This document shows, in pieces, positions 14,207 to 32,147 of a stretch of DNA of 64,000 nucleotides. Location of the stretch: the NCBI GenBank assembly GCA_000092065.1, contig CP000589.1; one strand, 5' to 3'. The notes under the pieces are model-generated. The model had not been told where the DNA came from. It saw only the letters and a list, made by a program, of their open reading frames with translations, and ran no database searches. The stretch's first letter is position 1. Every line of letters starts with the position of its first letter. The position numbers were made by a program, and so were the translations under genes. This DNA comes from Ostreococcus lucimarinus (lineage: Eukaryota).

Positions 14207-14757
14207 CGTCGCCGCCGCGCGTGGTATCATCTCGACATCTTCTCTGTGATTCACCTCTATGTCTCCACTCGACGACATTTGCGATTTCCGCACTAAAGAA
14301 TACTCCTCGCTCGCTCCGTCGTCGTCGCCGCCGCCCGTGACGAACGGGTCGCTCACCACCGCGAACGGCGTCGTCCCGTCTCCGCTCGTCGCCAACGCGG
14401 CCGCGCTCCCGAACGCGCTCATTTTCCCTCGTTCATTCGCGCTCGCGCGTTCGCGCGCGTCGTCTCCAGACATCCAGTCGCGCGCGATCGTTCGTCCAAC
14501 ACCATTCGTCTTCGCCAGCGCGCACGCGCACGCGAGCGTCACGCCCAGCGCGAACGTCGGTCGAAACACCGACGTGGACGCGCGCGCGCGCGACGAGCGG
14601 TGTCGTCGATCCCCGTCGCCGTCGCGCGTCAACAGCGGGGCGTCCTCCATCGCCGTCGTCGTCGCGTCGTCGTCGCGATGTGACGCGCCGCGTCGCCGCC
14701 GCCCGCACTGCGCGACGCGCGCGACGACGACGACGCGCGACGACGACGACGGGGGCG

Positions 14758-14897
14758 ATGCGCGCGATGACGACGACGCGCGGGCGCGGGCGCGCTCGCG
14801 CGGCGAACGCGACGACGACGACGACGACGCGACACCGGCGACGTCACCGCGCGGTGCGGGCGCGAGCGAGCGAGGACGCGAACGAGGCCAGCGAGCG

Positions 14898-14929
<32 letters not shown>

Positions 14930-16131
14930 AAGTGGTCGTCCTCGGCGGCACCGGACGCGTCGGGAGCGCGACGGCGGCGGCGCTGGTGCGAGGCGCGAAC
15001 GGCGGGGTGGAGGTGACGCTCGGCGGACGGTCGAGAGAGCGAGACGCGGAGGCCAAGGCGCGACATCGAGGGTTGGCGAACGCGTCGTTCGTTGAGGTGG
15101 ACGTGTGCGATAAGGCGAGCGTGACGCGAGCGATTCAAGGCGCTGACTTGGTGATCAACACCGCGGGACCGTTTCAGAGACGAAAGAGTTGCGCCGCGCT
15201 CGAGGCGGCGCTGGAGAGCGGGGTCAAGTATTTAGACGTCTGTGACGACGCGTCGTACGGCGCCGAGGCAAAGAAATTGAGCGAAAAGGCGAAAGCCGCG
15301 GGTGTGGCCGCGATCACGTGCGCGGGCATCTATCCCGGGGTGTCAAACCTTATGGCGCGAGACATCGTGGAGTCGATGAAGGCGGAGTTTCGCGCGACTG
15401 AAGAAAACGAAGGCAAAGAACCCGAGGTGGAGTACGTGCTTTACAACTACTTCACTGCGGGGTCGGGTGGGGTCGGGACGACGATTTTAGCCACGAGCTA
15501 TTTGCTCTGTGGCGAAGATGTCGTGTGTTGGGAAGACGGTCAGCGCATCGTCGAGAAACCAGCTTCGCAACGCAAAGTCGTCGATTTCGGCAAGGGCGTG
15601 GGCCGACGCGAGGTGTTCCTGTACAACTTGCCCGAAGTTGCATCGACACGTGAAATTTTCGGTGCGCGCACCGTGAAGGCTCGATTCGGTACGTCGCCAG
15701 GGATTTGGAACGGGGCCATGGTGGCAATAGCGAATTTAGTTCCAAAGTCGCTCTTGGAAAATCAAGACGCAATGAAAGGATTGGCGAACTTCTCCGCCCC
15801 GATCGTGCGCTCGGTGGATGCGATCGTTGGAGAAACTACATCCATCCGCGTGGACGTCAAACTGAAGGACGGCAAGCAGTCTGTGGGTTTGTATACGCAT
15901 CCGCGTTTAAGCGAGTGCGTCGGCACGTGCACGGCGTCTTTTGCAACGGCGATGTTGAATGGTGAATGTGCTCCTGGGGTTTGGTATCCTGAAGAAGTGG
16001 AAGCCATCAGCGATCGGGATGCGTTGTTCGAACGTGCCAAAGAAGGAACGTCGTTGTTTGCTTTGAATCAAGCGCCGTGGATGGTGGAATCAAAGCCAGT
16101 GAATTTGGGTTTCGGATTGTATTGGACGTAG
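14758..16131 (+). CDS. Saccharopine-dehydrogenase-like NAD(P)-binding oxidoreductase
   Basis: Rossmann start KVVVLGGTGRVGSATAAAL, DLVINTAGPF, YLDVCDD, and Sacchrp_dh-like C-terminal region. The N-terminus contains a poly-Thr run encoded by (ACG)n. Confidence 0.6.
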
Positions 16132-16283
16132 CTCGTGATAGGAAGCATGAATGTTATGAAAACGAAAGCGCGCGCCATGATTTCTTTATTTTCTTTATGT
16201 GTGCAGTATTTGCATCGAATTCGCTTGCATAATCGTTTACTAATATCTTTACTAATATTCAAACCGCCGAGCTCTCGAGTCTA

Positions 16284-17330
16284 TTACGCCGCGGACGCCA
16301 TCTTTGCCAGCGCCTTGATGGACGTGCTCACCAACGTGGCCAACTGCATTCCCTCATCCGCTCCTTGTGCCAAAAACCTGTCTACTTCACCGAGTTTGAT
16401 GAAGATCTCCGCCTTGACCTCGTCCGAGCAATCTGCCTCCAGGACGTAGTCAGAGTACTGATCGAGAATTTTGAGTCCTGAAAAACCGTCGCGCAAAATG
16501 TCCTCCATGTGCGCCTGCGCCTCTTCAAACTTGCCTTCACGGCACAGATCATACATCTTTTTGATTTTTTCATCTGGAATGTGCCCCGCCACTTCAACGA
16601 TGCTCGCACCACTAATCTTCCCCGCGAACAAACGCGCTGCGCTTTGCAACAACGTAATCGCCTTGCGCATGTCTCCTCCCGAGTGCTTTGAACACATCGC
16701 GAACACGTCGTCACTCATCTCCAAACCTTCTTGTTCGCCGATGAACTTCAATCGCGCACCCATAGTTTCCTGAGCGAGCGGTGAGAATCTAAACTTTGCG
16801 CATCGACTCGCGATCGGATCGATGATTTTCGTCACGTAGTTGCACAACAGAAAGAACCGAGTGACTTTTGAATACGTCTCCATCATCCTTCGCAGCGCCG
16901 ATTGCGCGTCGCCCGTCATGGCGTCCGCTTCGTCCAAGATTAATATCTTATACGGCGGAGACGGGTATCCCGGCGCGGGCGCACCGACGGCTTGCGAGGC
17001 AAAGGTTTTGATCTTGTTGCGGACCACGCTGATGCCTCTCTCGTCCGACGCGTTCAACTCCTTCACCCTTTGCTTATACAGCTCCGGTCCGTACAACTCC
17101 TTCGCGATCGCCAGCGCGGTGGTGGTTTTCCCAGTTCCCGGCGGTCCGTAGAACAGGCAGTGGGGCATGTTCCCCGTCTTCAGCGCGTTTTCCAGCACCC
17201 CCACGATTTGCTCCTGGCTCGCCACATCCTTGACGACGCGAGGGCGGTATTTCTCCACCCACGGCGCGTGCGCCTCGGCGCGCTGCGGACGCGTCGCTTC
17301 CGCGTCGACCATGGTCGTATCCGCAACCAT
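16284..17330 (-). CDS. Replication factor C small subunit (clamp loader AAA+ ATPase)
   Basis: WVEKYRP, Walker A FYGPPGTGKTTTALAIAKEL, DEAD-like ILILDEADAMT, SRC motif ASRCAKFRF, and C-terminal RFC helical domain. Confidence 0.9.
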   Translation of the reverse strand: MVADTTMVDAEATRPQRAEAHAPWVEKYRPRVVKDVASQEQIVGVLENALKTGNMPHCLFYGPPGTGKTTTALAIAKELYGPELYKQRVKELNASDERGISVVRNKIKTFASQAVGAPAPGYPSPPYKILILDEADAMTGDAQSALRRMMETYSKVTRFFLLCNYVTKIIDPIASRCAKFRFSPLAQETMGARLKFIGEQEGLEMSDDVFAMCSKHSGGDMRKAITLLQSAARLFAGKISGASIVEVAGHIPDEKIKKMYDLCREGKFEEAQAHMEDILRDGFSGLKILDQYSDYVLEADCSDEVKAEIFIKLGEVDRFLAQGADEGMQLATLVSTSIKALAKMASAA

Positions 17331-17635
17331 CGCGTCCGTGCGTCCGTCCGTCCGTCAGTCGTCGGCGTCGTGTGACGCGCGCGCACCCGCGAACGCCCGC
17401 CGCGCATCTCGCGCGCGGCGTCGCGGAATTTGAAATCGCGCCCGCGGCGAGGGCGTTCGGGCGTAGGGTTCGGTGAATGATAAACGATAGAGATAGCGTT
17501 AAGAACGCACTGAATGCGTCGAATGTGGACGTGTTTTGTATTTTCAACGGCGCGACGACGCGCGCGACGCGGTCGGTCGGTCGCTCCGTCGCCGTCTCGC
17601 ACTGCGCGGCGACGGCGACGGCGACGGCGACGGCG

Positions 17636-19012
17636 ATGTCGGACGCCGCGCGCGCGTCGACGCGGACGTCGTCGACATCGCGCCTCGCGCGTCGCGCGGT
17701 GGATCGAAGCGTCCGCGCGAACGACGCGACGACGCGACGGCGACGACGACCGCCGCCGGCGCGCGCTCGAGGCGAAGTGGACACGTGGACAGACGTCACG
17801 CTGCCGCTGAGCGAGGACGCGCGCGAGGCGTTCATGCGAGAGTATTGGCAGAAAAAGCCTCTGCTGATGCGGCAGGCGATACCGAACTTTCGACCGCCGC
17901 TGGATGGGAACGAAATCGCTGGTTTGGCGTGCGAGGAGGACGCGAGCGCGCGCATCTTCGTGCGCGAGGGGGACGACGAGCAGTCGTGGAGGAAGAAGAT
18001 TGGACCGTTCGAAGAAAGTGATTTGACATCCTTACCCGAAGACAAGCCGTGGAGCCTGATCGTTAACGATTTGGACGTGCAGGCGCAACCGTTTGGGGAC
18101 ATGTTGGAACTCTTCAACTGTTTTCCGCGTTGGCGAATTTCTGATATTCAAGCGAGCGTATCACCGGACGGCGGGGGCGTAGGACCGCACTCCGATCACT
18201 TTGATGTATTTCTTCTTCAAGCCGAAGGCGAAAAAGTTTGGGCCGTGGCGGATAACGAGGAGTACTGGCCAGATAATGATGCGGCATTTGTCCCAGAATG
18301 TGAAATTCGCGTGCTCAAAAGCTTTGTCGAGGACGATTCCTTCACGTTGGTTCCGGGTGATATGCTTTACTTGCCCCCCAAAATCGCTCACAACGGCGTG
18401 GCGACGAACTCAAAACCAGGCGTGAGCGTAACGTTGAGTATAGGCTTTCTAGCGCCGACGACGGATGAACTCGTCTTGTCTTACACGCAACGAGCATCTG
18501 AAAAATTGAAGGGCTCGCGTTGGTCCGATCCTTGGCTCAAACCGGTCGAAGACGTCGGTGCAATATCCGCTGAATCTATCACGTATGCATCGGAGATAAT
18601 TAAGCGCACGTATCCGAAGAATGATGCCGAAGTGGCGCGTTGGTTTGGTTGTCACACGACGGCGCGCACCGGCGAGGACGACGACGCGGACGAGAACGAA
18701 GTGAGCATCGAAGAACTATTAGCGGCTTGGGAACACCAAGGTCTAGTCGCGAGAGAAGATTTACGCTTCGCTTTCGTGGAAAAGGTTGCGGATGATAGTT
18801 TGAAGAACGCGCTGTTTTTCGCAAACGGAGAATGTTGGGATGTCGTCAGCCCGGCCGCTGTGAAAACAGCCACCGTCATCGCAAATAGAGGCGAGCTTTA
18901 CGAAGAAGACACGCAGACGGAGGAGTGTGATTTCGATGATGAAGCCTTAAAGCTCGCACTAACGCTATTTGAGCGTGGTTATCTCTATTTCCCCGAGGAT
19001 GAAGACGATTAA
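17636..19012 (+). CDS. Cupin/JmjC-type 2-oxoglutarate oxygenase, RoxA/YcfD-like (ribosomal protein hydroxylase family)
   Basis: N-terminal region follows E. coli YcfD (F.REYWQKKPLLMRQAIPNF..P..GNEIAGLA.EEDASARIF). Includes an HxD...H-type metal-site context (GPHSDHFDVFLLQAEGEKVW...IAHNG). The ORF begins at 17477, and the ATG at 17636 precedes a presequence-like stretch. Confidence 0.65.
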   Translation: MSDAARASTRTSSTSRLARRAVDRSVRANDATTRRRRRPPPARARGEVDTWTDVTLPLSEDAREAFMREYWQKKPLLMRQAIPNFRPPLDGNEIAGLACEEDASARIFVREGDDEQSWRKKIGPFEESDLTSLPEDKPWSLIVNDLDVQAQPFGDMLELFNCFPRWRISDIQASVSPDGGGVGPHSDHFDVFLLQAEGEKVWAVADNEEYWPDNDAAFVPECEIRVLKSFVEDDSFTLVPGDMLYLPPKIAHNGVATNSKPGVSVTLSIGFLAPTTDELVLSYTQRASEKLKGSRWSDPWLKPVEDVGAISAESITYASEIIKRTYPKNDAEVARWFGCHTTARTGEDDDADENEVSIEELLAAWEHQGLVAREDLRFAFVEKVADDSLKNALFFANGECWDVVSPAAVKTATVIANRGELYEEDTQTEECDFDDEALKLALTLFERGYLYFPEDEDD

Positions 19013-19892: not shown

Positions 19893-20102
19893 CGCGTCGC
19901 GCGGTGCCGACCGGCCGGGACGCCCGACGGGGAGTCAAAACACCCGGTCGCGCGGTCGCGCCGAAACACGAACGCGAAAACGGTCGCGACGCGGCGGGAA
20001 ACGCACGCGACCGACGCGTTCGAACGAGCGAGCGAACGCGCGCACACGCGAGCGCGCGAGCGACCGCGCTCGCGAACGAAAGGCGTCGACGGCGTCGGGT
20101 CG

Positions 20103-20175
20103 GGTCGCGCCGACGGCGAACGGCGAACGGCGAACGGCGAACGGCGAACGGCGAACGGCGAACGGCGAACGGCGA
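20103..20175. repeat. Heptanucleotide microsatellite (GAACGGC)n, about 10 units, in the 5' leader of the TPR gene
   Basis: gaacggcgaacggcgaacggcg... read directly. It lies 55 nt upstream of the ATG at 20229. Confidence 0.85.
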
Positions 20176-20228
20176 ACGACGGTTCGAGCGGGCGCGCGCG
20201 CGCGGAATCGAGTCGACCCGCGCGAGCG

Positions 20229-21530
20229 ATGGAAGAGAGCGATGGATGCGCGACGTCGCGAGACTTTGCGAGCGTGAAGATGGAATATTTTAAGACGCGC
20301 GCGCGCGAGGCGCTGGGGAACGGGAACTATAAGGAGGCGTACGCGACGTACACGAAGTGTCTGGAGGAACTCGCGCCGAGGGACGCGGGCGAACGCGCGA
20401 AACTGCTGTGTAACCGTTCGATGGCGTACGCCAAGTCTGCAAACTTTAAAGCGGCGCTGGAGGACGCGTCTGCGGCGGTGTCGTTGATGCCGACGTTCGC
20501 CAAGGGGTGGTGGCGCAAGGCGACCGCGCACGTGGGGCTGCGACAGTTCCCGGACGCGCTCGCCGCGTACAGGCAATCGTTCGAATGTCAGGACGAAGGC
20601 GACGCCGGCGTGATCGACGAGCACGTGAAAGCGATGAATAAAACGATCACTTCATTTACGCGCGAGCAACTTGCGAACTGGATTCTTGAAACTCTGCAAG
20701 ACATGGAGAATCGCGAGCTCATCGAGCACGCGCACCTCGAAAACGTCACGTCGTTGGAGATGGCAGAGGGAATGTTTTGTCAAATCAAAGGCATAAATGA
20801 AGGAAGCAAGCCGCGCGGCGACTACTATCGGTTCGTACAACATTGGAACGTACACGGTATGAGCGTGCCGATGGCTTACACCCAGCGTGCGAGCATGTAC
20901 CGCCACGCGTTGTGCTTTATGCAAGCTCGCGCCGACGCGGCGGCGGCGTTGACCTTGTTACAAGACGACGCATCGCTTTCTGACAAGGAAACGGAGATGA
21001 CCTTCACGTACAAAGTCGATGACTTCTCGCCTTTCAAGGAAGATACAGTCATCACCAAAGCTTGGGCGTGGTACGAGATGGGCAAGGCTTTTGAAGGGCG
21101 CGAAAATGGTGACACGCAAGCGGCGGCGAAGTGCTTCTCGGCGATAACGCACTTGGACACCAAGTATCCGATGTTCACGAACGCCTTCAAGAATGTGTGC
21201 AGTCGTATGACTGATGTCGAGGCTGGGAAAATATTGAGCGACATCAACGATCAGTACGGCGTGGCGGAGTATGGCGTGCGCACCGTTCCCGACGCTTTGG
21301 CAACTTACGTGGTCACCGTCAGCCTTCTCTTCAAAACTGGCAAGCTCGTCGGCTTCAACTCTAAAGTGCGAGACTCGTTTCGAGAAAACGTCGCGAAGGG
21401 TGCGAATGTCATCAAAGAAAAGGTACTCATAGAAAGCGTGCGCTCAAGGTTTCGTGGAGCGCCTGGTGTCGCGCTTTCGTATCGAATTCTCGCCGGCGAA
21501 GATAAATTAAACTCCGAGGTACGTGTTTGA
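20229..21530 (+). CDS. TPR-repeat protein (three N-terminal TPRs, Hop/Sti1-like) with uncharacterised C-terminal domain
   Basis: From the ATG at 20229: MEESDGCATSRDFASVKMEYFKTRAREALGNGNYKEAYATYTKCLEL...AKSANFKAALEDASAAVSLMPTFAKGWWRKATAHVGLRQFPDALAAYRQSFE. Upstream ORF sequence (19398-20228) is repeat/GC artefact. The 3' end carries a consensus donor (GAG|GTACGT) two codons before the stop. See findings. Confidence 0.6.
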   Translation: MEESDGCATSRDFASVKMEYFKTRAREALGNGNYKEAYATYTKCLEELAPRDAGERAKLLCNRSMAYAKSANFKAALEDASAAVSLMPTFAKGWWRKATAHVGLRQFPDALAAYRQSFECQDEGDAGVIDEHVKAMNKTITSFTREQLANWILETLQDMENRELIEHAHLENVTSLEMAEGMFCQIKGINEGSKPRGDYYRFVQHWNVHGMSVPMAYTQRASMYRHALCFMQARADAAAALTLLQDDASLSDKETEMTFTYKVDDFSPFKEDTVITKAWAWYEMGKAFEGRENGDTQAAAKCFSAITHLDTKYPMFTNAFKNVCSRMTDVEAGKILSDINDQYGVAEYGVRTVPDALATYVVTVSLLFKTGKLVGFNSKVRDSFRENVAKGANVIKEKVLIESVRSRFRGAPGVALSYRILAGEDKLNSEVRV

Positions 21531-21559
21531 TATCCGTCGTTCGGCGGCTGGTATTCACG

Positions 21560-22828
21560 ATGTTAGCGCAGAAAATGCTCGAGAAAATTCAAGCACACGA
21601 TTTGATGTTACTGGGTGGCGCAGAAACGGAGGCTGCGATGGGTACGGCGAGCGACGTGCAAGGTGAGTTAATTAAATGGAATAAATTGATGAGGAATTAA
21701 ATAATTCATCACGTAGGCGAGCTCAAGGAACTGAAGTCGGAGGACTTGGTAGATCGCATCAACAACTTACAAGGAATTATCTTATCGACATTAAAAAGTG
21801 GCAAGGAGATCGTAGTCGCGAAGCGACCACCAACCGACATGGAGCTTCCTTACAGAACGTACAAATTAGTTTACAACGACGGCACCCCGGTCGAACGAGT
21901 GAACAAAACGGGCTATCAAATGTCACAAGTGCACTACTCGGCGCAAGGAATGCACAAACGCGAAGTATGGGCTGAGATGATGGTGCGAACGACCGCAATT
22001 AATTATTTACAATTAAATTAAATTTGACACAGGACAAGTCTTGCCGATGGCACCAGAGCTCATCTGAGATAGCCGTTCAAGCGTTACAAGTGCCGAAGGA
22101 CGCCAAGAAGCAAGATTTGGATGTCTGCATCACGCCGTCGACCGTCAGAGTGTCATGTCGAAACACTGGACGCACGTACCTAGAGGTGATTTAAATTAAT
22201 TATTTCTCGACACGCAATTATTTACAATTCATTCGCTATCAGGGAGAGTTATTTCGACAAATCATACCAGAAGAGTCTGCGTGGGTTCACCTTGGTACGT
22301 GACAAATTAAATCAATCTTCACTATCGTTTCGCGATCGAAATTAATTATTTTGCTTCAGGCGGAGAGGATGACGACGGTTTCGTGTTGTACCTGAAGAAG
22401 ATGAACCTGGAGCTTTTCAAAGATAAGAACGCCGCGCCCAGTGATAGCTGGTGGGAACGGCTGTTTAATTCTCATGGAGATATTGCATTCGATGACTACG
22501 ATAAGGATTTCACGGATCTACCCACTCCTATCGCTGAGGTGAGTGTGCTTGTTTGTTTGTATCTCCTGTTTGAGCACCGCACTGACCAACTGCATTGCGC
22601 CCGACATAGTCCATCGCAGCCGCCGAAGATGCGTCAAGTGTACTGCAGGCGAGAGAAGAGGAAGAATATAAGGAGCGCGAAGCCGCACGCGAACGTGATG
22701 ACCTCCGAAAGCGCGAGAGACAAGTGCGCCTGGCTGAACTTCGCGGGGGCAAGTATTTGTCGTGGGTTGAGCTCGACAGACGCAATCCCGCGCCGAATCC
22801 TCTGGCACAACGCAGCGAGCCTGCGTAA
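21560..22828 (+). CDS. CS (p23/HSP20-like) domain protein, six exons with five short AT-rich introns
   Basis: Exons placed by eye: 21560-21662, 21717-21982, 22033-22185, 22243-22294, 22360-22538, 22610-22828. Introns are 54, 50, 57, 65 and 71 nt with GTGAGT/GTGCGA/GTGATT/GTACGT/GTGAGT donors and YAG acceptors, and phases are consistent. The spliced product contains a CS-domain signature (CRWHQSSSEIAVQALQVPKDAKKQDLDVCITPSTVRVS...YLEGELFRQIIPEESAWVHLGGEDDDGFVLYLKKMNLELFKDKNAAPSDSWWERLF) and a charged coiled-coil tail. Confidence 0.6.
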
Positions 22829-22983
22829 TTCCAGTATGTTTTCCACGATTTTGCCTCAAAATGACCATAACCAGCGCTTGTCGTGAAAGTTACTAATTTG
22901 TGCTTGAATTCTCGCCCGGTTGAACGAGCCGTCTAGACGTCCACGCGTTTGTCCCGTCGACACACGTCGAACTGTGCGCGAAC

Positions 22984-24128
22984 TCACGCCTTTTTCACTG
23001 TCCATAGCCAACTCCAGTATGTTTTGCTCGGATTTACTCCGTATCTTGCCCGTGGATCCGCCATGATCCGGAGCAATACTTCAACGACCCCCATGTCCTG
23101 TGTCACGAACTTGGGCACCTCAGCCGTGTGCATGAATGTGTGTTCGCGGATGAACACGACGGCCGTCGCGAGCAAAGACAGTAGCATGCATACCGTAGAA
23201 ATTGAGAAAAACATCGAAAGACAAAGCAACATGCTTTTCAAGTCGAAAAGAAGCACCTCTTCACCGAATAGATGACTGCACAACATCGTGTTGAAGCCCA
23301 AAATAGTGGATTGCCAAACCATGCGGTACCCCACAGTCCAGCACCACGCCTTCATGTAGCACCCCTTACAAGACGGACTGATCGTGGCAAATAGAAAATT
23401 ACCGCGATATTTGATGAAATTGTCGAGTTGAACTCGTGCGAGCCTTGGTTTATCGTCTATTTCGCTGGCTTGCATCGCAAGTCTGTGTTCGAGAATCGAG
23501 TCGCCAACGACGGTGTGTAGTATGGGTGGATCTCCCTGCGCGATAGGTGTGAGCGAACGTGTTCAGGGTGAAAAGCGAAAAGTCTTACGTGATAATAACC
23601 ATTATGAGACACGATAGAATGACAGATCGGACACGTTCCAGAGCCCTCTTGTCCTGTGAAAGGACACATCAATTTTGACTCTGCTTTCGTCAGCTCGTCG
23701 GAGTCTTCCAGTAGTGGAGCGGCGTTTTGCCATGGCTTTGTGTCGAAAACGGCACGAATTCCCTCGTATCGACCGGTTTCTAGCAAAACGAAACACGTAA
23801 CGCTAAAAAACATCATAAACGACGACACCAAGAGCGTCCACCATTCTGCAAAGTGTCGTGAGTGTCTCGAGTTTGACTGCGACATGGTCAACTCACCACA
23901 AAAGCTGTACAAGGCCGTGCTCTTTGGAGCCGTTAGGGCCGCCGCTAGGGCTGCAGTTGCGCTGATCGGGACTGAAATCTTGCCTCTCAAGGCATTCATG
24001 ATGCCAAAAGGCTGCATCATCACTTGCATAACGGTCATGGTTGGAGGCAAACTGTGACGTTCTCCCCTCGTTTCCAAAATTGAGACTTGATTAGACTCGT
24101 CTTGAGCGCGTGCGTCATGGGGCGACAA
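22984..24128 (-). CDS. Probable multi-exon gene for a small polytopic membrane protein (exon structure unresolved)
   Basis: Two adjacent minus-strand ORFs (23457..24128 and 22984..23475) in the low-GC island encode hydrophobic helices (WWTLLVSSFMMFFSVTCFVLL; LLCLSMFFSISTVCMLLSLLATAVVF) separated by segments that look intronic. No family recognised. Confidence 0.3.
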
Positions 24129-24241
24129 TTTCGCGCGTGCATCGATTTATCGATTTGTGAGTGAAGTAAATTATTACGGTGTAAGGAGTTGCGATGAAAG
24201 TTCGGGATGATTCTCATCTCACATTCAAACGATCTAAAGTT

Positions 24242-27141
24242 CTACTTTTCCATTTCCTCGACCCACTCCGGGTTCTTCTTTAAGATGACAACTCCCTCTA
24301 AAACAGGAGTCAAAGGAATGTATTTCTCGCTCGCCAGCTCCGCTCGATCGCCAACTGACAGAAGTACGGGAGTGTTATGTGTTTGGAAGCCAGTGATAGT
24401 CTTTGGTCGCCCAGCCTGTCCCACGACGTCAACAGCTTGACCGACTCGAACAGACACTTGCAACGGTTCCCCTTGTTCATCCACAGTCATGAGCATGCGC
24501 GGTTGGGCAGCGACAAACAAATAGTACAGCATGTAGTGATGCTTACCCAAAATCGTATGCTTCATGTCGAGTCCCGCAAAGGCGGTGATGATCAAACCAG
24601 CAAGTGCGACGTTTGACACCAGCGCTCGGTCCGAGTGCGCCGGAGAAAGCGTGAGCAAGCCCTTACCCATATGCACAAGACCCTGTGAGACACGCACGAG
24701 GAACAAACACGACGGCTCCTTGTAGTAGTAACTACTAAGTTGTCGTAGCTGCGAGGCCAAGCGCGCGTTGTTGGTTCCCGCTCCAACAATACCGAGGGCA
24801 AGGCACGCGGACTGCGCGACCTCTTCATTGCTATCGTGACTGAGTCTACCAAGTAAATCCGTGACATCAAGCTTCGGGTTGGAGGTGTGTAACAGCGCAA
24901 ATGCGAGAGGAACGGCTTTCTTTACTGCCGCGTCACCATACTGAATAAGGTGATCGTACGCACGGACCGCCATGTCTGCTCCAAGTTCTTCGCCCATGGC
25001 AACGAGAGCGATGCCCAACACAGCGACACTCTGGGGATCTGCAATCCATTCATCGCCTTCGTCAGCCTCCGGGTGCTCGCCGCACTTCGCCAAAAGAGAC
25101 TGAATTTTCAACACATTACCACTACCGGCGTACGCGCACACGTCCAGCACAGTTTGTAAATATCCGCTGATTCGCGCCGGGAGAGTTTTCGCAACTTCCA
25201 ATGTCGCTTCCACTTCCGCTTGACGCTGTAAGAAAAGTAAACCTAAACCTAGGCACAAAAAGTGCACAAACGTATTGTCGAGTTCTTTCTCAGGCCGCAT
25301 CATCAGCGTTTGGACGATGGTCGACACAGACTCTTCGTGGCACGTGCCGCAGAAGACGAGGCCAAGCGACAGCGCTGCGAAAGCAACGACTTCCAACGGA
25401 GCACTGTCATCGTGAATCACCTCCGTGAGAAGCTCGGAAACTTCTTCTTTTTGAGTACCAGCATATGCCAAACCAAGTCCCATTATCGCACCGATTCTTA
25501 CTGCGGAGTTTTCCTTGGTCACGCTCTCGTACAACAAACCGTAAGCGGGATCGCAATCGTTCCGCACATTAGTGTTGATGAGACCAACGGCAAGCAAGCC
25601 ACCCGCAACGATGTTCGGTTCCTCGCTATAGAGATAAGCATCGACTTGCGGTAGACCGCCTTCAACGTCCCAAAGCAAGATGCTCCCAAGGCTAGCAGCT
25701 GCTGACATTTTACCGTGATCTTTGTTTTTGAAAATCCAGCTCACATTAGATGTGGAACCATCCGCGGCTTCTGAAGAAGTTAAAAGCTTATCTTGTCCGA
25801 AACCGGCGTTCACGAACGCGTTCACGAATGTCGCTGCGAGGTTAGCACGAGCACTATCCACTGCGGCGCCCGAAGGAGCGCGAACTTCCATTAAATGCGA
25901 TTTGTAAATGTCCTCGGGTAACTTCGCCTCCATGACATCCAAGTCACGCGCCAGCATCAAGTAGTTCTTTGTCAAGTCTGAGTGACTCATGATGTTCTGC
26001 AGCATATCCAGGTTATCTTCTTCAACCTCACACGGGCCTTCATCGAGCTTCAACGGATGGCCGTGACGGGCCAACATGTAGCAAAGTTGCTTCTTGATGG
26101 CCAAGTTGGTGCACGCGTTGAACGTCTCTTCGATGATGCTCTGCTCGCAGAGCTTGAGCGCAACTCGCATAGCGTCTGGCATCTTCCCAACCTTCATGAA
26201 AATCGCATGCGCCGTCTTCAACACGATTGCATCTTCTGGCTCAGGAAGATAGTTGGCACAGCTGAACAGGTACAAGCATGTCCTCGAATAGTTGGCGTCG
26301 TTCACGTTGTCGAGCAAAATGTCGAGCTTCTCAACTTCCAATAGTAAATCGACAGCCTCTGGCTCGGCGTTGTGTTGCATGTGAAAAGGAACGATTTCGT
26401 GCACCAAACCCATGAGATCTTCCATCGAAGCCTTGTCCCCATCTTGCTCTATGCGACGATGGTATTCAGTGCCGATCTCTGCGGCGAGATTACGCACATA
26501 CTCGTGTCCCCAGTTCCCGATGTCCTCCTTTGACCCTAATAATCTGTACTTCAACGACTCTGGAATTTCCCCAGCCACCGGAGCGTTGGTCATGGACAAC
26601 AAGGAAATGATATCCGCCAGCAGTAACTTGTTTTCTCCATTCTTCGTTTTGTCGTACACCTCCTTCAAGGTTTGCAAGTGCGGTCTCAAAAACTTTAAAG
26701 GCTTTGGGACCGAAGTCATCGAACTGTTCGCATCGCCGTAAAGTACCGTATCATTTCGTCAGTATCGCGCATATCACTCACTCAATCGTCGCGTGATCCA
26801 CGATCGCGTCGTAATCGTTCATGCGACCTCGTCGCTCTCGCACTCGCGCACCTCGTCGCCGTTCGGATCTCGCGTCTCATCGTTTCAAGCGCCAATTTCG
26901 CCACCCCCGCCTTCGGATCGCTCGCTCGCATCACCATCAGTTCCAAGTTCTCCTTCAGCGCCGCGTCTTCTTCGCTCAACTCCACCTCGTTCTTCTTATC
27001 CTTTCTATTCTTCGTCGTCGATGACTTTCCATCGCCAACGACCCCATCGCCGTTTTTGTCGTCTTTGTCGTCGCCCGCGGCGTTCTTTCCTTTCTTCGCG
27101 CTCGCCGCGGCGACGGCGTCGTTGGGTTTCTTCGTCACCAT
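24242..27141 (-). CDS. RPN1: 26S proteasome regulatory subunit RPN1 (PSMD2), two exons
   Basis: Exon 1 is 26852-27141 (MVTKK...LSEEDAALKENLELMVMRASDPKAGVAKLALETMRREIRTAT), matching the RPN1 N-terminus. A 128-nt intron at 26724-26851 has a GTGCGC donor and AACAG acceptor. Exon 2 is 24242-26723, beginning S-MTSVPKPLKFLRPH as in human PSMD2, followed by PC repeats and a conserved C-terminus. The two ORFs in the track are in different frames, as the intron length predicts. Confidence 0.9.
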
Positions 27142-27395
27142 CGCGTGAGTCGGTTAAAGCGTCGCGTCGGGTGACGACGCGTCGACGAGAGCGGCGATCA
27201 TTTGCTCGCCGATCTTCATAGGCATCCTCAGCTCACCGTCTGCGCTCGTGCCCTGGGCGAGCGCTCGACGACGCGACCTCGCGAGCGCGAAGGGACGCGC
27301 GGATGGCTTTAGAAAACGAAAATCGCGAGCAATAATGTAAAAGAAAACCGACAGATGCTAAGATATCACTAAAAAATGCGTCGCGTTTCGTTCGT

Positions 27396-29444
27396 CTACT
27401 CTACGGAAGCCGCCGCTCGCGCGTCGAGCGTCTTGCGCTTGTGCGAGCTCACCGAGGTGTTCGCCTTCATCAACTCCCGAAGAACCATGGTGGCGTAAGA
27501 AGACGGGGGCAGAGTGAACTTCACCGTTACGGCACGTAAAGGGCCGTCTTCGATGGTGCGTTCGGTGATGCCATTGATGCGATCGAGATCGGTCAAAACC
27601 AAATCCGCCGCCGCGTCCGCGTACGAAATGACGGTGTGCGATACGTTTGTGGGTTTGAGAAAGCATCTACGGTAGTCACCGGTGAATGAGTTGATTGCGA
27701 ATTCACGAACCGAATGCGTCGTAGTATTCAAACTGATTCCATCCTCCGCGGCGAATCGATCGTAAACATCACCCAAATTTGTTGGGTACGTTATCGAGTT
27801 TCCAGGAAGCGGCAGCACCACGAGCGACGAGTCAATCGCACCCAAAGCGGCTTCCTCGGCTGTCACTACGCGAACCCTCGGCATACTCACCCGAGTATCG
27901 CCATTCATATCGTCTTCGCCTTCATCTCCGGCACAGTTTCCCTCTTCGAGCACTAAGTCACCTTCGACGACCGTGTTGACTCCGTACTTACGAATGCGCT
28001 CCGACACGACACGATTAAACAAGTATGCCTGGTAGGCGTGAATGTACATCAGTCTAATCTGCTTCGGCACGGCCAACAGCGATCCGACCAAGTCCGTGGA
28101 GCGAACTTTTGACATGCGCTCGAGCACACAGCGCTCTGCCGCGCACCAGCGTGGCATCAACTTCAAAGTCTCATTGGGATCCTTTGTTTCCATCCATTTC
28201 AAGCGCGCCTTCATGACATCGTCGCGCTCGCCTTCGCGCGGCAGCAGCAAAGCGTCGATCGCAGCTTGCCATTCGCCACGTAAAAGTTCAATTCCAATTT
28301 TATGCGTTGCGTGTTTGCCCCCAGCGCTACCAAATCTCTGCAAACCGTAGTAGTTGATGGTCCCTGAAGACTTGAGTGCGCGCACTGCCTCCTCCACGTT
28401 CCCGACGACGTCTGGGTCGATGCCTCGGAGCGTTATCTCAAACTCGTTCCCGCAATGGTCTCCGAAACCAAGTTGTCTGTCGACATACGTATAGTTACCA
28501 ATTTTACACCCATAAAGTACCAGCTTGGCCAACCTTTTCGCCCGAACTCTGTGCACGGTGACGTGTTGCGTTGTCACTCCGCGCTTGTCCTTCGTTCCGG
28601 CGACGCCAATAGACTTGAAGTTCACCTTCAAGGCCCGGGCTATGACGTTGAGCATCTCGTAAGACTCTTTGTTTTCTTTGCAAAACGCAAATCGCACATG
28701 TTCTGGAACGCCTTCGGGCCAAAAGTTTCCCACCGCTCGATGATCCATTGCCTCCACGCGCGTTCGCTTCTTGCCTTGCTTGACGGCGGCATGCACGCGC
28801 ACGCTCGAAGACGGCTTTTTCAAGTTCTTGAGAGCTTCCTTCTCTTCCTCGTTCGACTCCACGACGTTGTCCGTAGGTAATAAAAAGTGTTTCTTGAAAA
28901 ATTGATGAATTTGCGTCCGTTTCGCTTTATCCGTCGTCGGCTCGAGCACGAGCGGTTGGGGCGTTTCCGCCTTTCCATCGTGCGTCTTCTGACTTCGACG
29001 CGTCACCCCGGGAGTGGCTAAAAATTCTCTCAGTCGCCGCGCGTCCTCTGCACCGCACAGCGCTTCGAATTCTTTCATTGCCTCCTCAATACTCTCTTCT
29101 TTATCCCCCTCCACGTCATCCTTCGCCGCGTCCTCGTCCTCCGCTTCGTCGTCCGGCCCGCGCTCGCGTTCCATGGCTTGCACTTTCGCCTTCATCGCCT
29201 CAAACTTCTTCCGCTCTCGCGCGTCGATCTCTACATCGCACGTCGCGCTCAGTTCATTCAAAACCACCGCCTCACCGCTCTCGATGTCGATCTCCCGCAC
29301 GATGAAATCGCTGTAGCGTTCTTTCAGCACACCATCGAATCCGGCGGCGGCGTTGGCGTAGAGCTCGAGGCCGACGAGTCGCTCCTCCACGTGCTCGATC
29401 GCGTCGTTCTCGCGCCACGATGCCGACGACGGCGCGTGCGACAT
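27396..29444 (-). CDS. PUS7: tRNA pseudouridine synthase, TruD/Pus7 family
   Basis: TruD motifs: YSDFIVREID, catalytic-Asp region GVAGTKDKRGVTTQHVTV, FEITLRG, NYYGLQRFG. 682 aa, typical of eukaryotic Pus7. Confidence 0.8.
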   Translation of the reverse strand: MSHAPSSASWRENDAIEHVEERLVGLELYANAAAGFDGVLKERYSDFIVREIDIESGEAVVLNELSATCDVEIDARERKKFEAMKAKVQAMERERGPDDEAEDEDAAKDDVEGDKEESIEEAMKEFEALCGAEDARRLREFLATPGVTRRSQKTHDGKAETPQPLVLEPTTDKAKRTQIHQFFKKHFLLPTDNVVESNEEEKEALKNLKKPSSSVRVHAAVKQGKKRTRVEAMDHRAVGNFWPEGVPEHVRFAFCKENKESYEMLNVIARALKVNFKSIGVAGTKDKRGVTTQHVTVHRVRAKRLAKLVLYGCKIGNYTYVDRQLGFGDHCGNEFEITLRGIDPDVVGNVEEAVRALKSSGTINYYGLQRFGSAGGKHATHKIGIELLRGEWQAAIDALLLPREGERDDVMKARLKWMETKDPNETLKLMPRWCAAERCVLERMSKVRSTDLVGSLLAVPKQIRLMYIHAYQAYLFNRVVSERIRKYGVNTVVEGDLVLEEGNCAGDEGEDDMNGDTRVSMPRVRVVTAEEAALGAIDSSLVVLPLPGNSITYPTNLGDVYDRFAAEDGISLNTTTHSVREFAINSFTGDYRRCFLKPTNVSHTVISYADAAADLVLTDLDRINGITERTIEDGPLRAVTVKFTLPPSSYATMVLRELMKANTSVSSHKRKTLDARAAASVE

Positions 29445-29578
29445 CGTTCACGACCGCTCGACGCGACGAAAGGTGACGCCGAACGCGCTCGCGCTCGTCG
29501 CGACGCCGCGCGCGCGAGTGTGACCGCCCAACAAACTCGTTCGAGACTGTTCGCCGCATTGTTCGCCGCGCGCGCGCG

Positions 29579-30295
29579 ATGGGCGCTTCGATCGAGGGCG
29601 AGGTCGATGAAATAATCGCTCGTCATCGCGCGTGCGTGTTACGCGGACGCGCGTTCTTCGTCGCGTGGCACGGGACGCTGACGCTCGCGTTTCAAGCTTG
29701 GAGCGAAGATTTCGCGAGACTCAAGCGCGCGCTGAACGAGATCGACGCGATGCAAGCCGAGGCGTTCGGATCGAAGTGGCCGAAAATTTCATTGGGGTGC
29801 TTGAAATCAGACGACGCGGGGGGGAGGTTGACGATGGAGGAGTACGAAGCGTTGCGCGACGTCTGCGATGGCTTTCGCGGTCGAGCGGAGCGCGACGCTC
29901 GAGTTCGAGCGAGCGAGCTGAAAGTCGTGGTTTTTGGTTCGAGATGCTGCGAGCGACGCGTGAGCGTAAAGCGCGTGAAACTGCGCCCAGAGGAATGCGG
30001 TGAGGAGGCATCGAGGGAAAGTGTAGCGCTCGTTGAGTCTGTGCTAAGTGAGGGACGGCGTGACGAAGAATACTTAAATCGCGTCAACGCGCCGGGGCAT
30101 CGAGCGTGTCATTACGAACAAGGAAGCGGTGTCACGCTCGTGGCCGACGCTCTCGAAGGAAACACCTCCGACGTTTCTGATTTGACAGCGTTGCTGCTCG
30201 AGTTTCGGAGCGCGGTTGAGAAAATATTACCGGGACGCTTCCGTTGGTTTCGAGACGATTCTCTGCACGTCACCGTGCGCGGTCTCGTAAACTAG
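29579..30295 (+). CDS. Hypothetical protein, possible 2H phosphoesterase (LigT/CPDase-like) fold
   Basis: Two H-x-T-x motifs about 200 aa apart (WHGTLTLAF near the N-terminus; LHVTVRGL near the C-terminus) are the hallmark of the 2H family. No other support. Confidence 0.35.
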   Translation: MGASIEGEVDEIIARHRACVLRGRAFFVAWHGTLTLAFQAWSEDFARLKRALNEIDAMQAEAFGSKWPKISLGCLKSDDAGGRLTMEEYEALRDVCDGFRGRAERDARVRASELKVVVFGSRCCERRVSVKRVKLRPEECGEEASRESVALVESVLSEGRRDEEYLNRVNAPGHRACHYEQGSGVTLVADALEGNTSDVSDLTALLLEFRSAVEKILPGRFRWFRDDSLHVTVRGLVN

Positions 30296-30333
30296 ACAAA
30301 TAGAGTTAGAAAAAATAGGGCATTGTTTTAGAC

Positions 30334-32147
30334 TTACATTCGATCAACATAGAAATCATTTTCTTCGTCATACGCGATGACGTTATCAGCAACGCGCGCG
30401 GGATCAACAATCATGGGCCCGCGAGTCATTCCTCGCGCGGTCGCGGACGATCCGGCGTAATCGGCCACGCTGAGTGCCACGCGTTGCAAAATATCCCATT
30501 GCCACGACGACGCATTAGCGCCCGCACCACCAAATAATGTCGCCGCCGGCGACGGTTGCTTAAGCTGGACGCTAAAAATTTCGGCGCCAGCGCTGAGGAG
30601 GTCGAGAAGGACATCGTCAGACGTTTTGAGTTTGTCCACCAAATTTCTCGACAGCGCATCTTTGCCAAACCACGTCTCGCCCGTCGCGACGTTGTCAATG
30701 TCCAAAGTCGGTCTATTTTCGGCGACAAAACCCTTGAAGAGCACCAAAACGTCTTCGATGTCCTTCTTTGACTTTTCCAAGTCTTCCTCGGTGACCTTCT
30801 TCGTGGGCGTCAAGGTTCGCTTGAACTTGCCAGCGGTGACAGTTTGAAATTCGATACCTTCCCGTTGAAGCCGCTCGTAGACATTAGGTTGCTCGCTAAT
30901 GACACCGATAGAACCGAGAACCGCGAACGGAGACGCAACGATTTCGTCGGCCACGCAAGCCATCATGTACCCACCAGAGGCGGCGACTTGCTCGACACAG
31001 ATGGTCAGCTTGAGACCGGCGTCTTTGATTCGCATCAGCTGCGCAGCGGCAAGCCCGTAGCCAGTGACCGTACCGCCACCCGTATTCAACCGCAAAACAA
31101 CTTCATCACCTCGTTCCTTTTTCGCCGAACGTAACAAACCAGTGACTTCTTCACGGAGCTGTTCCGCTTGAGATGCGCGCACGTCGCCAAAAAAGTTCAA
31201 CACAAAGACATGCTTCTTCTTTATCTTCGAGTTTTGGTCCGTTTCCGGGTTCAAAGCGAGCACGTCCGCGTTCATTTGCCAACCAGCAATTTCGCGTGGG
31301 TCAGACAGCAATTTCATGAGACTCTCGCGGCGAGCTTTCGGCAACGCCGCGCCGACGGTTTGCAAGTACGCGTCTTCAGCGGCGGCGCGGTCGGCGGTCA
31401 ATTTGCTGAGCTTCTTGGTCAAACCCGCGAGCTTATCGCCACCAAACGGATTCTTGAATCCACTACTTTTCGTTTCACCGTCCGGCTCGGACTTCTCGGA
31501 ATCTTCGCTCTCGGTGTCGCTCTTTGCGCGCTTTCCGCCAGATTCCAACGACGTCGCCCGCATTTGAGCCAAAAGCTCGTTCATCTGGTCCATCAAACGC
31601 TTGTCCGTCATCGTCCACTTCTTGTTCGCTTCGAGAATGGCATTGCACTCGTCTTCGCTGAGCGATCCGAGGGCGGCGCCGAACTTTTTGCTGAATTCCA
31701 TATTCTTGCGGCGTCGTTCGGCTTGCATTTCGCTCACCGTCGCCGCTTCAAACGACAGCGAATATCCGTCGAGTTTATCATTCATGCGCTTGATCTCCAA
31801 GTAAGGCTCCGTGCGCGGTTTCGCACCCGCGCCCCCTTTGATGAAACCGAAAGGTCCGCTACCCTTCTCGCGGTCCCGTCTCCCTCCGCGTCTCGAAGAA
31901 GCAATCAGAAAAAACGCGCCCGCCGCGACCGTCGCGCTCGGCACCCCCCACGAGATGAGCGTCTTCAGCGTGTACAATCCCAACTCCTTCGCCTCGGGCG
32001 TGCTCAACGCGTTCGGAATCCACGCGAACAACCCCGCGACGAACGCCGTCGCGCCGTGCGCGTCCGCCGCCGCCAGCGCCGGTTCCGCCGCCGCCGCGCT
32101 CAGGAACATCGCCGCGCTCAGGAACATCGCCTTCGACACCGCTCGCG

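What the first reader, a model, noticed from the sequence alone, without database searches (positions are those of the whole stretch)
21519..22609. Family of very short (50-71 nt) AT-rich introns sharing an AATTAATTATTT(ACAATT) core
Four of the five introns of the CS-domain gene contain near-identical AT-rich cores: aattaaataatt (21663-21716), gcaattaattatttacaatt (21983-22032), aattaattatttctcgacacgcaattatttacaatt (22186-22242) and cgaaattaattattttgc (22295-22359). The surrounding exons are GC-rich. A shared sequence core among introns of one gene suggests recent intron gain from a common source (introner-like propagation) or a conserved intronic regulatory motif. Phase-consistent exon joins reconstruct a CS-domain protein, which supports the intron calls.
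Basis: seen in the sequence. Interest (0 to 1): 0.65.

Follow-up and report, generated by a model that had tools for sequence, protein, structure and literature searches.

The report
Conserved AT-rich mini-introns in Ostreococcus
Four tiny AT-rich introns in one gene of the marine picoalga Ostreococcus share a short AATTAATT(ATTT) core that is real, old and kept by selection, so it is probably a splicing signal of a known odd intron class and not a sign of recently copied mobile introns.

Summary
AATTAATTATTT occurs three times in the window, only in introns 3, 4 and 5 of one gene (0.1 expected).

The same six introns sit at the same positions, with almost the same lengths, in about ten deeply diverged Ostreococcus lineages. 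A spliced transcript contig from a sister lineage confirms the junctions of introns 2-6 exactly. Recent introner-like gain is therefore rejected.

Introns 2-5 are short (50-65 nt) and AT-rich (GC 0.26-0.32), and lack the canonical GACTGACG branch site. Each carries one or two AATTAATT(ATTT) blocks at fixed distances from the splice sites. These blocks persist although synonymous sites are saturated, and they change less than half as often as the rest of the intron between close relatives. Intron 6 of the same gene is a normal canonical intron.

The introns match the known small AT-rich "BOC1" introns of Mamiellales. They differ in two ways: they lie outside that region, and they carry a motif that the literature says this class lacks. 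Bathycoccus-like and other relatives have none of these introns. Best reading: a cis-acting splicing element, shown here in one gene only.

The parts
20229..22828 (+). TPR + CS-domain gene (749 aa, 7 exons); host of the introns
   Evidence: Conceptual splicing gives an open 749-aa protein. Pfam finds CS at aa 553-615 and TPR at the N-terminus. It is 72% identical over 738 aa to O. tauri XP_022839573.1, with only 2 gaps, none at an exon junction.
21519..21571 (+). Intron 1 (53 nt, GC 0.53, phase 0); intermediate type, no core in this lineage
   Evidence: The position is shared by all Ostreococcus lineages. It carries AATTAAT(T) just after the 5' splice site in lineages B, E and F, and ACTGAC in lineage G.
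21663..21716 (+). Intron 2 (54 nt, GC 0.26, phase 1); AT-rich mini-intron with blocks TTAATTAA (21668-21675) and AATTAAATAATTC (21695-21707)
   Evidence: The junction is confirmed in lineage C by transcript L045.
21983..22032 (+). Intron 3 (50 nt, GC 0.30, phase 0); core AATTAATTATTT at 21997-22008, followed by AATTATTTACAATT (22001-22014)
   Evidence: It is 10 nt shorter than in all other lineages (60-61 nt) and looks like a patchwork of intron 5 and intron 4 segments.
22186..22242 (+). Intron 4 (57 nt, GC 0.28, phase 0); 5'-proximal core AATTAATTATTTC at 22194-22206 and second block AATTATTTACAATT at 22216-22229
   Evidence: AATTAATTATTTC sits at intron position +9 in lineages A, B (O. tauri), F and G, with one mismatch in C.
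22295..22359 (+). Intron 5 (65 nt, GC 0.32, phase 1); 3'-proximal core AATTAATTATTT at 22340-22351, 8 nt before the 3' splice site; weak block AAATTAAAT at 22304-22312
   Evidence: The core sits at the same place in lineages A, D, F and G.
22539..22609 (+). Intron 6 (71 nt, GC 0.51, phase 0); canonical Ostreococcus intron with GCACTGACC branch site and no AATTAATT block; serves as the internal control
   Evidence: ACTGAC or ACTAAC is kept in lineages A, B, C, D and G.
21000..31000 (.). Low-GC islet (about 0.43-0.58, against more than 0.6 on both sides) holding the 3' part of the gene and its neighbours
   Evidence: O. tauri has an equivalent islet (L001 about 10-18 kb). Gene order is kept across Ostreococcus lineages.

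Best explanation
Introns 2-5 are genuine, constitutively spliced U2-type mini-introns of the small, AT-rich class known in Mamiellales as 'BOC1 introns'. Here they sit in a gene on a standard chromosome of an Ostreococcus species.

They are at least as old as the genus. Their shared core, consensus AATTAATT(A)TTT(C), is not a relic of recent copying. It is a short linear element kept by purifying selection at fixed places: about +8 to +21 from the 5' splice site (introns 2 and 4; also intron 1 in some lineages), and about -9 to -25 from the 3' splice site (introns 3 and 5; second blocks of introns 2 and 4).

Inferred mechanism. On the pre-mRNA, AAUUAAUU(A)UUU replaces the strong canonical signals (GUGCGUG donor, GACUGACG branch site) that these introns lack.
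- The 3'-proximal block would supply the branch site plus a U-tract. AUUAAU is ACUGAC with every C changed to U and G to A, and it can still pair with the U2 GUAGUA box through G.U wobbles.
- The 5'-proximal block would act as an AU/U-rich intron-definition or enhancer element, as in plant introns.
- As a side effect, AATT repeats place TAA in all three frames, so retained introns lead to premature stops.

Shown: the introns are real, old and position-conserved; the motif is enriched, positionally fixed and under constraint; the canonical branch site is absent. Inferred: that the constraint acts through splicing, and the specific roles of the two blocks.

The extra-long identities seen in this window (19-mer between introns 3 and 5, 14-mer between introns 3 and 4) are special to this lineage. 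Intron 3 was remodelled here, possibly by short-patch conversion from its neighbours.
For: Gene model and splicing
- 72% identity to the annotated O. tauri protein, with 2 gaps in 738 columns and none at an exon junction; CS domain found.
- Transcript contig L045 holds the exact 24-nt exon junctions of introns 2-6 of lineage C and none of the intron sequence.

Age
- All six introns have the same positions and nearly fixed lengths in about ten lineages.
- 4-fold-site identity between major lineages is 0.24-0.49, which is saturated. A gene tree shows deep clades.

Motif
- AATTAATT occurs 20 times in 25 introns against 0.62 expected.
- There are 30 sites within 3 mismatches of AATTAATTATTTC in 35 introns, against 5.1 +/- 2.1 in shuffles (maximum 13), and none in intron 6.
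- Positions are fixed for each intron.
- Between close relatives, 7.0% of block positions differ against 16.3% elsewhere in the intron (Fisher p = 2e-4).
- The motif is absent from the rest of the window and occurs once outside this gene in the 11 related loci scanned.

Class
- Length 50-65 nt and GC 0.26-0.32. No ACTGAC in introns 2-5 of the window, whereas intron 6 has it.
- This fits the published descriptions of BOC1 introns (PMC3491373, PMC3879977, PMC2483917, PMC13298755).

Other points
- The introns are unstructured as RNA (z-scores -1.2 to +1.1), which fits a linear single-strand signal.
- Retention gives an in-frame stop in 30 of 30 cases for introns 2-4, but only 4 of 10 for intron 6.
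- The sense strand is T-rich on both sides of the palindromic core.
Against: - All evidence comes from one gene and its orthologues. I could not sample BOC1 introns or a whole genome.
- Published surveys of BOC1 introns report no conserved motif and no branch point (PMC3491373, PMC3879977).
- The core is a DNA palindrome, and near-matches are as frequent on the antisense strand (28 against 30). A double-strand DNA reading is therefore not excluded.
- The 5'-proximal block lies only 9-22 nt from the donor, too close to be a branch site by usual standards, so two different roles must be assumed.
- yUnAy-like branch sites arise by chance in any AT-rich sequence.
- The block-versus-rest substitution test defines blocks by similarity to the consensus, which carries some ascertainment bias.
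- There is no transcript evidence for the window's own lineage, and none for intron 1.
Confidence: 0.6

Rival explanations
1. Recent introner-like propagation. A short mobile AT-rich element recently copied itself into several positions of this gene and elsewhere in the genome.
For: Three introns share an exact 12-mer and two share a 14-mer, more than composition allows. Introner elements exist in the related genus Micromonas (PMC3879977).
Against: - All six introns are at orthologous positions in about ten lineages with saturated synonymous divergence.
- Identity is confined to 12-20 nt. There are no terminal inverted repeats or target duplications.
- There is no other copy in 64 kb, and one intergenic AATTAATT in 11 related loci.
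- No paper in the held library reports introners in Ostreococcus.
Confidence: 0.03
2. Ancient burst of gain from one AT-rich source. The introns were inserted in the Ostreococcus stem lineage from a common element or filler sequence. The core is what remains of that source, later kept because it is needed for splicing. This is compatible with the best explanation for present-day function.
For: - A Bathycoccus-like orthologue in conserved synteny is one uninterrupted ORF across all six positions.
- Three further relatives (L043, L044, L046) also lack the introns at these positions, and two of them (L043, L044) have introns elsewhere.
- The introns have similar lengths (50-66 nt) and cluster in the last third of the gene.
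- Massive intron gain was inferred for the Mamiellales stem (PMC3488318).
Against: - cDNA-mediated loss of several adjacent 3' introns at once is common, so a few loss events in intron-poor relatives explain the pattern equally well.
- No Micromonas or land-plant orthologue was examined.
- Intron 1 shows the motif coming and going within Ostreococcus (present in B, absent in its sisters D and D2). The core can therefore arise or vanish without a shared source.
Confidence: 0.2
3. DNA-level element. The palindromic AATTAATT blocks are binding sites for a dimeric DNA-binding protein (homeodomain-type TAATTA) or nucleosome-excluding AT tracts. They would form an intragenic regulatory or chromatin cluster, tolerated only in introns.
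For: The core is a perfect palindrome, and near-matches are equally frequent on both strands. There are 7-9 blocks within 700 bp. Chromatin differences have been proposed to shape splicing of AT-rich Mamiellales introns (PMC13298755).
Against: Blocks keep fixed distances to splice sites, not to each other or to the promoter. The sense strand is T-rich on both flanks, which is asymmetric. Intron 6 and the neighbouring genes' introns have none.
Confidence: 0.1
4. Neutral by-product. Strong AT mutation bias plus slippage of an (AATT)n microsatellite regenerates similar strings in any unconstrained short intron.
For: The number of AATT units varies between lineages in intron 2, from (AATT)2 to (AATT)4. 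The region is a low-GC islet.
Against: - Intron 6 (180 nt away), the neighbour gene's introns and 4-fold sites are not AT-rich.
- Tandem Repeats Finder finds no array.
- Block positions are conserved while spacers are randomised.
- Blocks change less than half as often as the rest of the intron.
- Enrichment is about 30-fold over dinucleotide shuffles.
Confidence: 0.05

Closest known systems
BOC1 introns of Mamiellales: small AT-rich introns of the low-GC region of the big outlier chromosome (Derelle 2006; Moreau 2012, PMC3491373; Verhelst 2013, PMC3879977; Irimia and Roy 2008, PMC2483917; Condon 2026, PMC13298755)
   Same: Length 50-65 nt and GC 0.26-0.32. Several introns per gene. GT-AG with weak GTRNGT-type donors. 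No ACTGAC branch site. A sharp GC drop at the splice sites. Spliced according to transcript data.
   Different: They lie outside BOC1. The O. tauri orthologue is on contig CAID01000009.2, the low-GC patch is only about 8-10 kb, and gene order is conserved, unlike in BOC1. They also carry a conserved, positionally fixed AATTAATT(ATTT) core, whereas the class is described as lacking any conserved motif.
Introner elements of Micromonas (IE-A to IE-D; the 67-nt IE-C of RCC299 is the closest in size)
   Same: Short introns in a Mamiellales alga that share sequence with one another.
   Different: Introners are similar over their whole length, present in hundreds to thousands of genes, avoid low-GC regions, carry the canonical GACTGACG branch site, and differ between strains. 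Here only a 12-20 nt AT-only core is shared, within one gene, at positions fixed across the genus.
AU/U-rich intron definition in plants (UA-rich intronic elements; U-rich binding proteins such as UBP1 and RBP45/47). Cited from general knowledge, not tested here.
   Same: Intron recognition by AU-richness against GC-richer exons, with short U/A-rich elements near both splice sites that act without secondary structure.
   Different: Plant elements are loosely defined U-rich runs. Here a specific near-palindromic 8-13-mer recurs. No binding protein is known in Ostreococcus.
Branch-site recognition by SF1/BBP and U2 (UACUAAC / ACUGAC), and bipartite U(U/A)AA sites of STAR-family proteins. Cited from general knowledge, as a lead only.
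   Same: AUUAAU is the transition-shifted form of the canonical Ostreococcus ACUGAC. It lies 9-15 nt before the 3' splice site in introns 3 and 5. There are two blocks per intron, about 20-25 nt apart.
   Different: Branch points were not mapped. The 5'-proximal blocks are too close to the donor to be branch sites.
Stop-codon surveillance of tiny introns (Jaillon 2008, cited in PMC3879977)
   Same: Retention of introns 2-4 always gives an in-frame stop, usually in all three frames.
   Different: Any AT-rich sequence would do this. It does not explain a specific, positionally fixed core.

Membership tests
BOC1-type small AT-rich introns (Mamiellales) | Short: 40-65 nt (Moreau 2012), or under 75 nt (Verhelst 2013) | tested here: met
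   Introns 2-5 are 54, 50, 57 and 65 nt in the window, and 50-68 nt in all lineages.
BOC1-type small AT-rich introns (Mamiellales) | AT-rich: under 43% GC, with a GC drop relative to flanking exons | tested here: met
   GC is 0.26-0.32 against 0.51 for the exons in the window. It is 0.20-0.41 in the other lineages, with one exception (L005 intron 5, 0.46).
BOC1-type small AT-rich introns (Mamiellales) | Located in the contiguous low-GC BOC1 region of the big outlier chromosome (chromosome 2 in O. tauri) | tested here: not met
   The O. tauri orthologue is on contig CAID01000009.2 (713 kb). Reading that name as chromosome 9 is my inference. The low-GC patch is only about 8-10 kb, with GC above 0.6 on both sides. 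Gene order is kept across Ostreococcus and partly in Bathycoccus, whereas BOC1 lacks collinearity (PMC3491373). The window itself was not mapped to an assembly.
BOC1-type small AT-rich introns (Mamiellales) | No canonical branch-point motif; weak donor (GTRNGT, not GTGCGTG) | tested here: met
   There is no ACTGAC or ACTAAC in introns 2-5 of the window. The donors are GTGAGT, GTGCGA, GTGATT and GTACGT. One exception elsewhere: L005 intron 5 contains ACTGAC.
BOC1-type small AT-rich introns (Mamiellales) | No conserved sequence motif (as described in the literature) | tested here: not met
   A conserved AATTAATT(ATTT) core is present.
BOC1-type small AT-rich introns (Mamiellales) | Removed from transcripts | tested here: met
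   Exact junctions of introns 2-6 are found in transcript contig L045 of lineage C. The annotated O. tauri protein agrees. This was not shown for the window's own lineage.
Introner / introner-like elements | Many near-identical copies in unrelated genes of one genome | tested here: inconclusive
   There is no copy elsewhere in the 64-kb window, and one intergenic AATTAATT in 11 related loci. A whole genome could not be searched with these tools.
Introner / introner-like elements | Recent gain: presence/absence differences between close relatives | tested here: not met
   The introns are present at the same positions in all of the roughly ten Ostreococcus lineages sampled.
Introner / introner-like elements | Similarity over most of the intron length; terminal repeats or target-site duplications for transposon-derived introners | tested here: not met
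   Shared stretches are 12-19 nt. No inverted repeats lie at the intron ends and there are no duplications.
Canonical Ostreococcus spliceosomal introns | GTGCGTG donor, (G)ACTGAC(G) branch site 20-35 nt before a CGCAG acceptor (PMC2483917) | tested here: not met
   Introns 2-5 lack all three features. Intron 6 of the same gene has ACTGAC 26 nt before its acceptor, with GTGCGT and CGCAG in most lineages.
Known structured or non-coding RNAs hosted in introns (Rfam) | Match to a covariance model, or significant folding | tested here: not met
   No Rfam match at E <= 1 in 20000-24500. Folding z-scores range from -1.2 to +1.1.

The most novel reading that the evidence does not exclude
AAUUAAUU(A)UUU is a dedicated recognition code for the enigmatic small AT-rich intron class of Ostreococcus. 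It would serve as an AT-shifted branch site plus a donor-proximal enhancer, read by U2/SF1 or by a specific AU-binding protein. The so-called signal-less BOC1-type introns would then have a sequence code after all.

At this locus, a block of such introns was added in the Ostreococcus stem lineage, outside the outlier chromosome. A variant of this reading is a gene-specific element that coordinates retention of the four introns of this co-chaperone-like gene.
Probability: 0.3. Interest if true: 0.65.

Novelty: new variant of a known kind. Interest (0 to 1): 0.48.

Why it matters
How the splicing machinery of Mamiellales recognises its small AT-rich introns is an open question. Published surveys find no branch point and no motif, and the introns are tied to one chromosomal region (BOC1, a putative mating-type region) where splicing is error-prone.

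This gene offers a clean natural experiment. AT-rich and canonical introns sit side by side in one transcript on a standard chromosome. Each intron has kept its type across a genus-wide radiation, and the AT-rich ones carry a short element under measurable constraint.

If the element is general, it gives a concrete sequence to mutate in O. tauri, which can be transformed, and to look for in lariat data. It would also show that the AT-rich intron type is a property of the intron and not only of its chromosomal compartment. If it is confined to this gene, it is a small curiosity.

Tried and rejected
- Rfam scans of 20000-24500 at E <= 1, and of the whole window at gathering thresholds: nothing in the gene; only one tRNA-Met, at 55283-55354.
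- RNA folding of introns 2-6: no structure beyond shuffles.
- Tandem Repeats Finder on 21400-22700: no array, so this is not a microsatellite.
- Repeat search for terminal inverted repeats or target duplications: none at intron ends.
- Exact look-up of the 749-aa model in the protein collection: not present, so there is no independent annotation for this species.
- Literature searches for AATTAATT with Ostreococcus, for BOC1 intron motifs and for introners in Ostreococcus: no description of the motif or of introners in this genus. The only AATTAATT hit was a Hi-C ligation site.
- Derelle 2006 (PMC1544224) is not held in the library.
- I considered scanning metagenomes for the motif itself. I rejected this because an AT-only 14-mer would mostly hit AT-rich marine bacteria.
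- I could not fetch any BOC1 sequence, because look-ups are limited to proteins of this window and their homologues. Whether the core is general in BOC1 introns remains untested.
- U12-type introns were excluded by eye: no ATATCC donor and no TCCTTAAC branch site.
- A polyadenylation-signal reading (ATTAAA occurs in several blocks) was considered, but only as a possible side effect.
Full report
**1. What is in the sequence**

The region 21519-22609 lies inside a gene that starts at 20229 and ends at 22828. Joining seven exons across six GT-AG introns gives an open 749-aa protein. The introns are at 21519-21571, 21663-21716, 21983-22032, 22186-22242, 22295-22359 and 22539-22609. The protein has TPR repeats at the N-terminus and a CS domain at residues 553-615.

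The protein is 72% identical to the annotated Ostreococcus tauri protein XP_022839573.1 ('Tetratricopeptide repeat', named a HOP-like co-chaperone in another strain). The alignment covers 738 residues with only 2 gaps, none at an exon junction. The window therefore comes from another Ostreococcus species. Its first exon is 100% identical to several marine metagenome contigs.

AATTAATTATTT occurs three times, only in introns 3, 4 and 5, against 0.1 expected. ATTATTTACAATT occurs twice. AATTAATT occurs nowhere else in 64 kb. Shuffling the four AT-rich introns while keeping their dinucleotides never gave a 12-mer shared by three introns (0 of 5000).

Introns 2-5 are 50-65 nt long with GC 0.26-0.32, against 0.51 for the exons. 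Intron 6 has GC 0.51 and carries the canonical ACTGAC branch site. Intron 1 has GC 0.53 and lacks both ACTGAC and the core.

**2. Age of the introns**

I compared four sets of orthologous sequence:
- the O. tauri locus (L001);
- three long metagenomic loci found through the first-exon protein (L003, L005, L007);
- 32 further loci from a metagenome scan (L009-L040);
- L048 and L049.

Together they represent about ten distinct Ostreococcus lineages in conserved gene order: NmrA, RFC, JmjC, WW, this gene, a small gene, then RPN1.

All lineages have all six introns at identical positions, with almost unchanged lengths. Identity at 4-fold degenerate sites between the major lineages is 0.24-0.49, which is saturated. 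A gene tree shows five deep clades. The introns therefore predate the radiation of the genus, which rules out recent introner-like gain.

There is direct evidence of splicing. A 1022-nt contig from an SRA run (L045) is a spliced transcript of lineage C. It contains the exact 24-nt exon-exon junctions predicted for introns 2-6 and none of the intron sequence.

**3. The motif**

Across the interiors of 25 introns (introns 1-5 of five lineages), AATTAATT occurs 20 times against 0.62 expected from dinucleotide shuffles.

In seven independent lineages there are 30 sites within three mismatches of AATTAATTATTTC in 35 introns. Shuffles give 5.1 +/- 2.1, with a maximum of 13. Intron 6 has none in any lineage.

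The blocks keep their place:
- In intron 4 the 13-mer starts at position +9 in lineages A, B, F and G, with one mismatch in C. A second AATTATTT-like block lies 17-27 nt before the acceptor.
- In introns 3 and 5 the block ends 4-12 nt before the acceptor.
- Intron 2 has one block right after the donor and one in its 3' half.
- The spacers between blocks are randomised.

Between closely related pairs, 7.0% of block positions differ against 16.3% of other intron positions (Fisher p = 2e-4). This test carries some ascertainment bias.

The introns do not fold, match no Rfam family and are not tandem arrays.

The core is a palindrome, and near-matches are equally common on the antisense strand. The flanks, however, are T-rich on the sense strand on both sides.

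**4. What is special to this window**

In the window's lineage only, intron 3 is 50 nt long instead of 60-61. It reads like a patchwork of two pieces:
- CGACCGCAATTAATTATTT resembles intron 5's CGATCGAAATTAATTATTT (17 of 19 positions).
- The following AATTATTTACAATT is identical to the second block of intron 4. That block is ancestral in intron 4, because O. tauri has AATTATTTAC there.

Short-patch conversion between neighbouring introns is a possible cause, but I did not test it.

**5. Relatives outside the genus**

A Bathycoccus-like orthologue (L041/L042) was identified by three features: GC 0.46, neighbours WW-JmjC-RFC, and a GT29 sialyltransferase, a family reported as typical of Bathycoccus (PMC3491373). 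It is a single uninterrupted reading frame over residues 308-742 of the query. One member of its protein cluster is a 960-aa ORF on a 3.3-kb contig.

Three more relatives also lack introns at the Ostreococcus positions:
- L046, which shares neighbours Cys/Met-metabolism and NmrA genes; it lacks all six, though its frame shifts once near residue 630.
- L044, which lacks introns 3-6.
- L043, which lacks introns 3-6 (the position of intron 2 lies in a weakly aligned stretch).

L043 and L044 have introns of their own elsewhere in the gene.

The six introns are therefore specific to Ostreococcus among the sequences sampled. Either they were gained in its stem lineage, or each relative lost the 3' introns in one cDNA-type event. 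I cannot decide between these. I did not obtain Micromonas or streptophyte orthologues.

**6. Comparison with what is known**

Small (40-65 nt), AT-rich, multi-copy introns without a recognisable branch point are a described peculiarity of Mamiellales. They are called BOC1 introns and are reported as restricted to the low-GC part of the big outlier chromosome, which is chromosome 2 in O. tauri. They are also reported as lacking any conserved motif (PMC3491373, PMC3879977, PMC2483917, PMC13298755, bioRxiv 10.1101/2025.04.21.649811).

Introns 2-5 meet the criteria of size, composition, donor type and missing branch point. They differ in two respects.

First, they are not in BOC1:
- The O. tauri orthologue is on contig CAID01000009.2. 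Reading that name as chromosome 9 is my inference.
- The low-GC patch is only about 8-10 kb, between stretches with GC above 0.6.
- Gene order is conserved, unlike in BOC1.

Second, they carry a conserved core.

In the same islet, canonical introns (intron 6 here; the first intron of RPN1) and short non-AT introns of the neighbouring gene lie next to the AT-rich ones. The AT-rich type is therefore a property of the individual intron, not of the region. I found no paper that names this motif.

**7. Mechanism**

- **Shown:** the blocks are constrained and positioned relative to the splice sites, in introns that lack the canonical signals.
- **Inferred:** they are splicing signals on the RNA.

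AUUAAU equals the canonical ACUGAC with all C/G replaced by U/A. It can still pair with the invariant U2 GUAGUA box through G.U wobbles (established knowledge of U2-branch-site pairing; not tested here). In introns 3 and 5 it lies 9-15 nt before the acceptor and is followed by Ts, which suits a branch site plus pyrimidine tract.

The donor-proximal blocks are too close to the donor for that role. They resemble the AU/U-rich intron-definition elements of plants instead.

AATT repeats also give TAA in all frames. Retention of introns 2-4 always creates an in-frame stop, against 4 of 10 cases for intron 6. I regard this as a side benefit.

The rival explanations are a DNA-level palindromic site, neutral AT bias with slippage, and an ancient common source. 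They are weighed in their own sections.

**8. Verdict**

The introner reading is rejected for recent times. The 'conserved intronic motif' reading is supported.

The introns are a new variant of a known kind: BOC1-like mini-introns outside BOC1, with a conserved AATTAATT(ATTT) element.

The main limitation is that everything rests on one gene family. The generality of the element in other AT-rich introns could not be tested here.

Noticed in passing
window 20113-20178: A perfect 7-nt tandem repeat, (ACGGCGA) x 9.4, lies about 50 nt upstream of the start codon of the TPR-CS gene. Translated, it gives the GERRTAN repeats seen.
   Followed up: no
window 22984-24128 (minus strand): The neighbouring small gene has two 51-53 nt introns (about 23846-23896 and 23535-23587). 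Their GC is about 0.5, and they have neither the canonical ACTGAC branch site nor the AATTAATT core. This is a third flavour of short intron in the same low-GC islet.
   Followed up: partly
window 26724-26781 (minus strand): A likely canonical 58-nt intron (GTGAGTG...ATACTGACG...ACAG) lies just upstream of the long RPN1 ORF (24242-26719). It suggests a very short first exon.
   Followed up: no
window about 21000-31000; L001 about 10000-18000: A low-GC islet (0.43-0.58) is flanked by GC above 0.6 and is conserved between this species and O. tauri. The GC3 of the host gene falls from about 0.8 at the N-terminus to about 0.5-0.6 in the intron-bearing part.
   Followed up: partly
L005 and L024, intron 2: Lineage D uses a GC-AG donor (GCAAGT, GCGAGT) for intron 2, where all other lineages have GTGAGT or GTGAC.
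   Followed up: no
L041 against L003 and the other Ostreococcus loci: The TPR-CS gene is inverted relative to its neighbours WW-JmjC-RFC between the Bathycoccus-like contig and Ostreococcus. In Ostreococcus its 3' half abuts the low-GC islet.
   Followed up: no
window 55283-55354 (minus strand): tRNA-Met (CAT) is the only Rfam or ARAGORN hit in the window. One of the few AT-rich spots of the window ends at its edge (55266-55285).
   Followed up: no
L007 and L025, intron 6: In lineages E and F the otherwise canonical intron 6 has lost ACTGAC. In E it has become AT-richer (GC 0.38). An intron can therefore drift between the two types.
   Followed up: no
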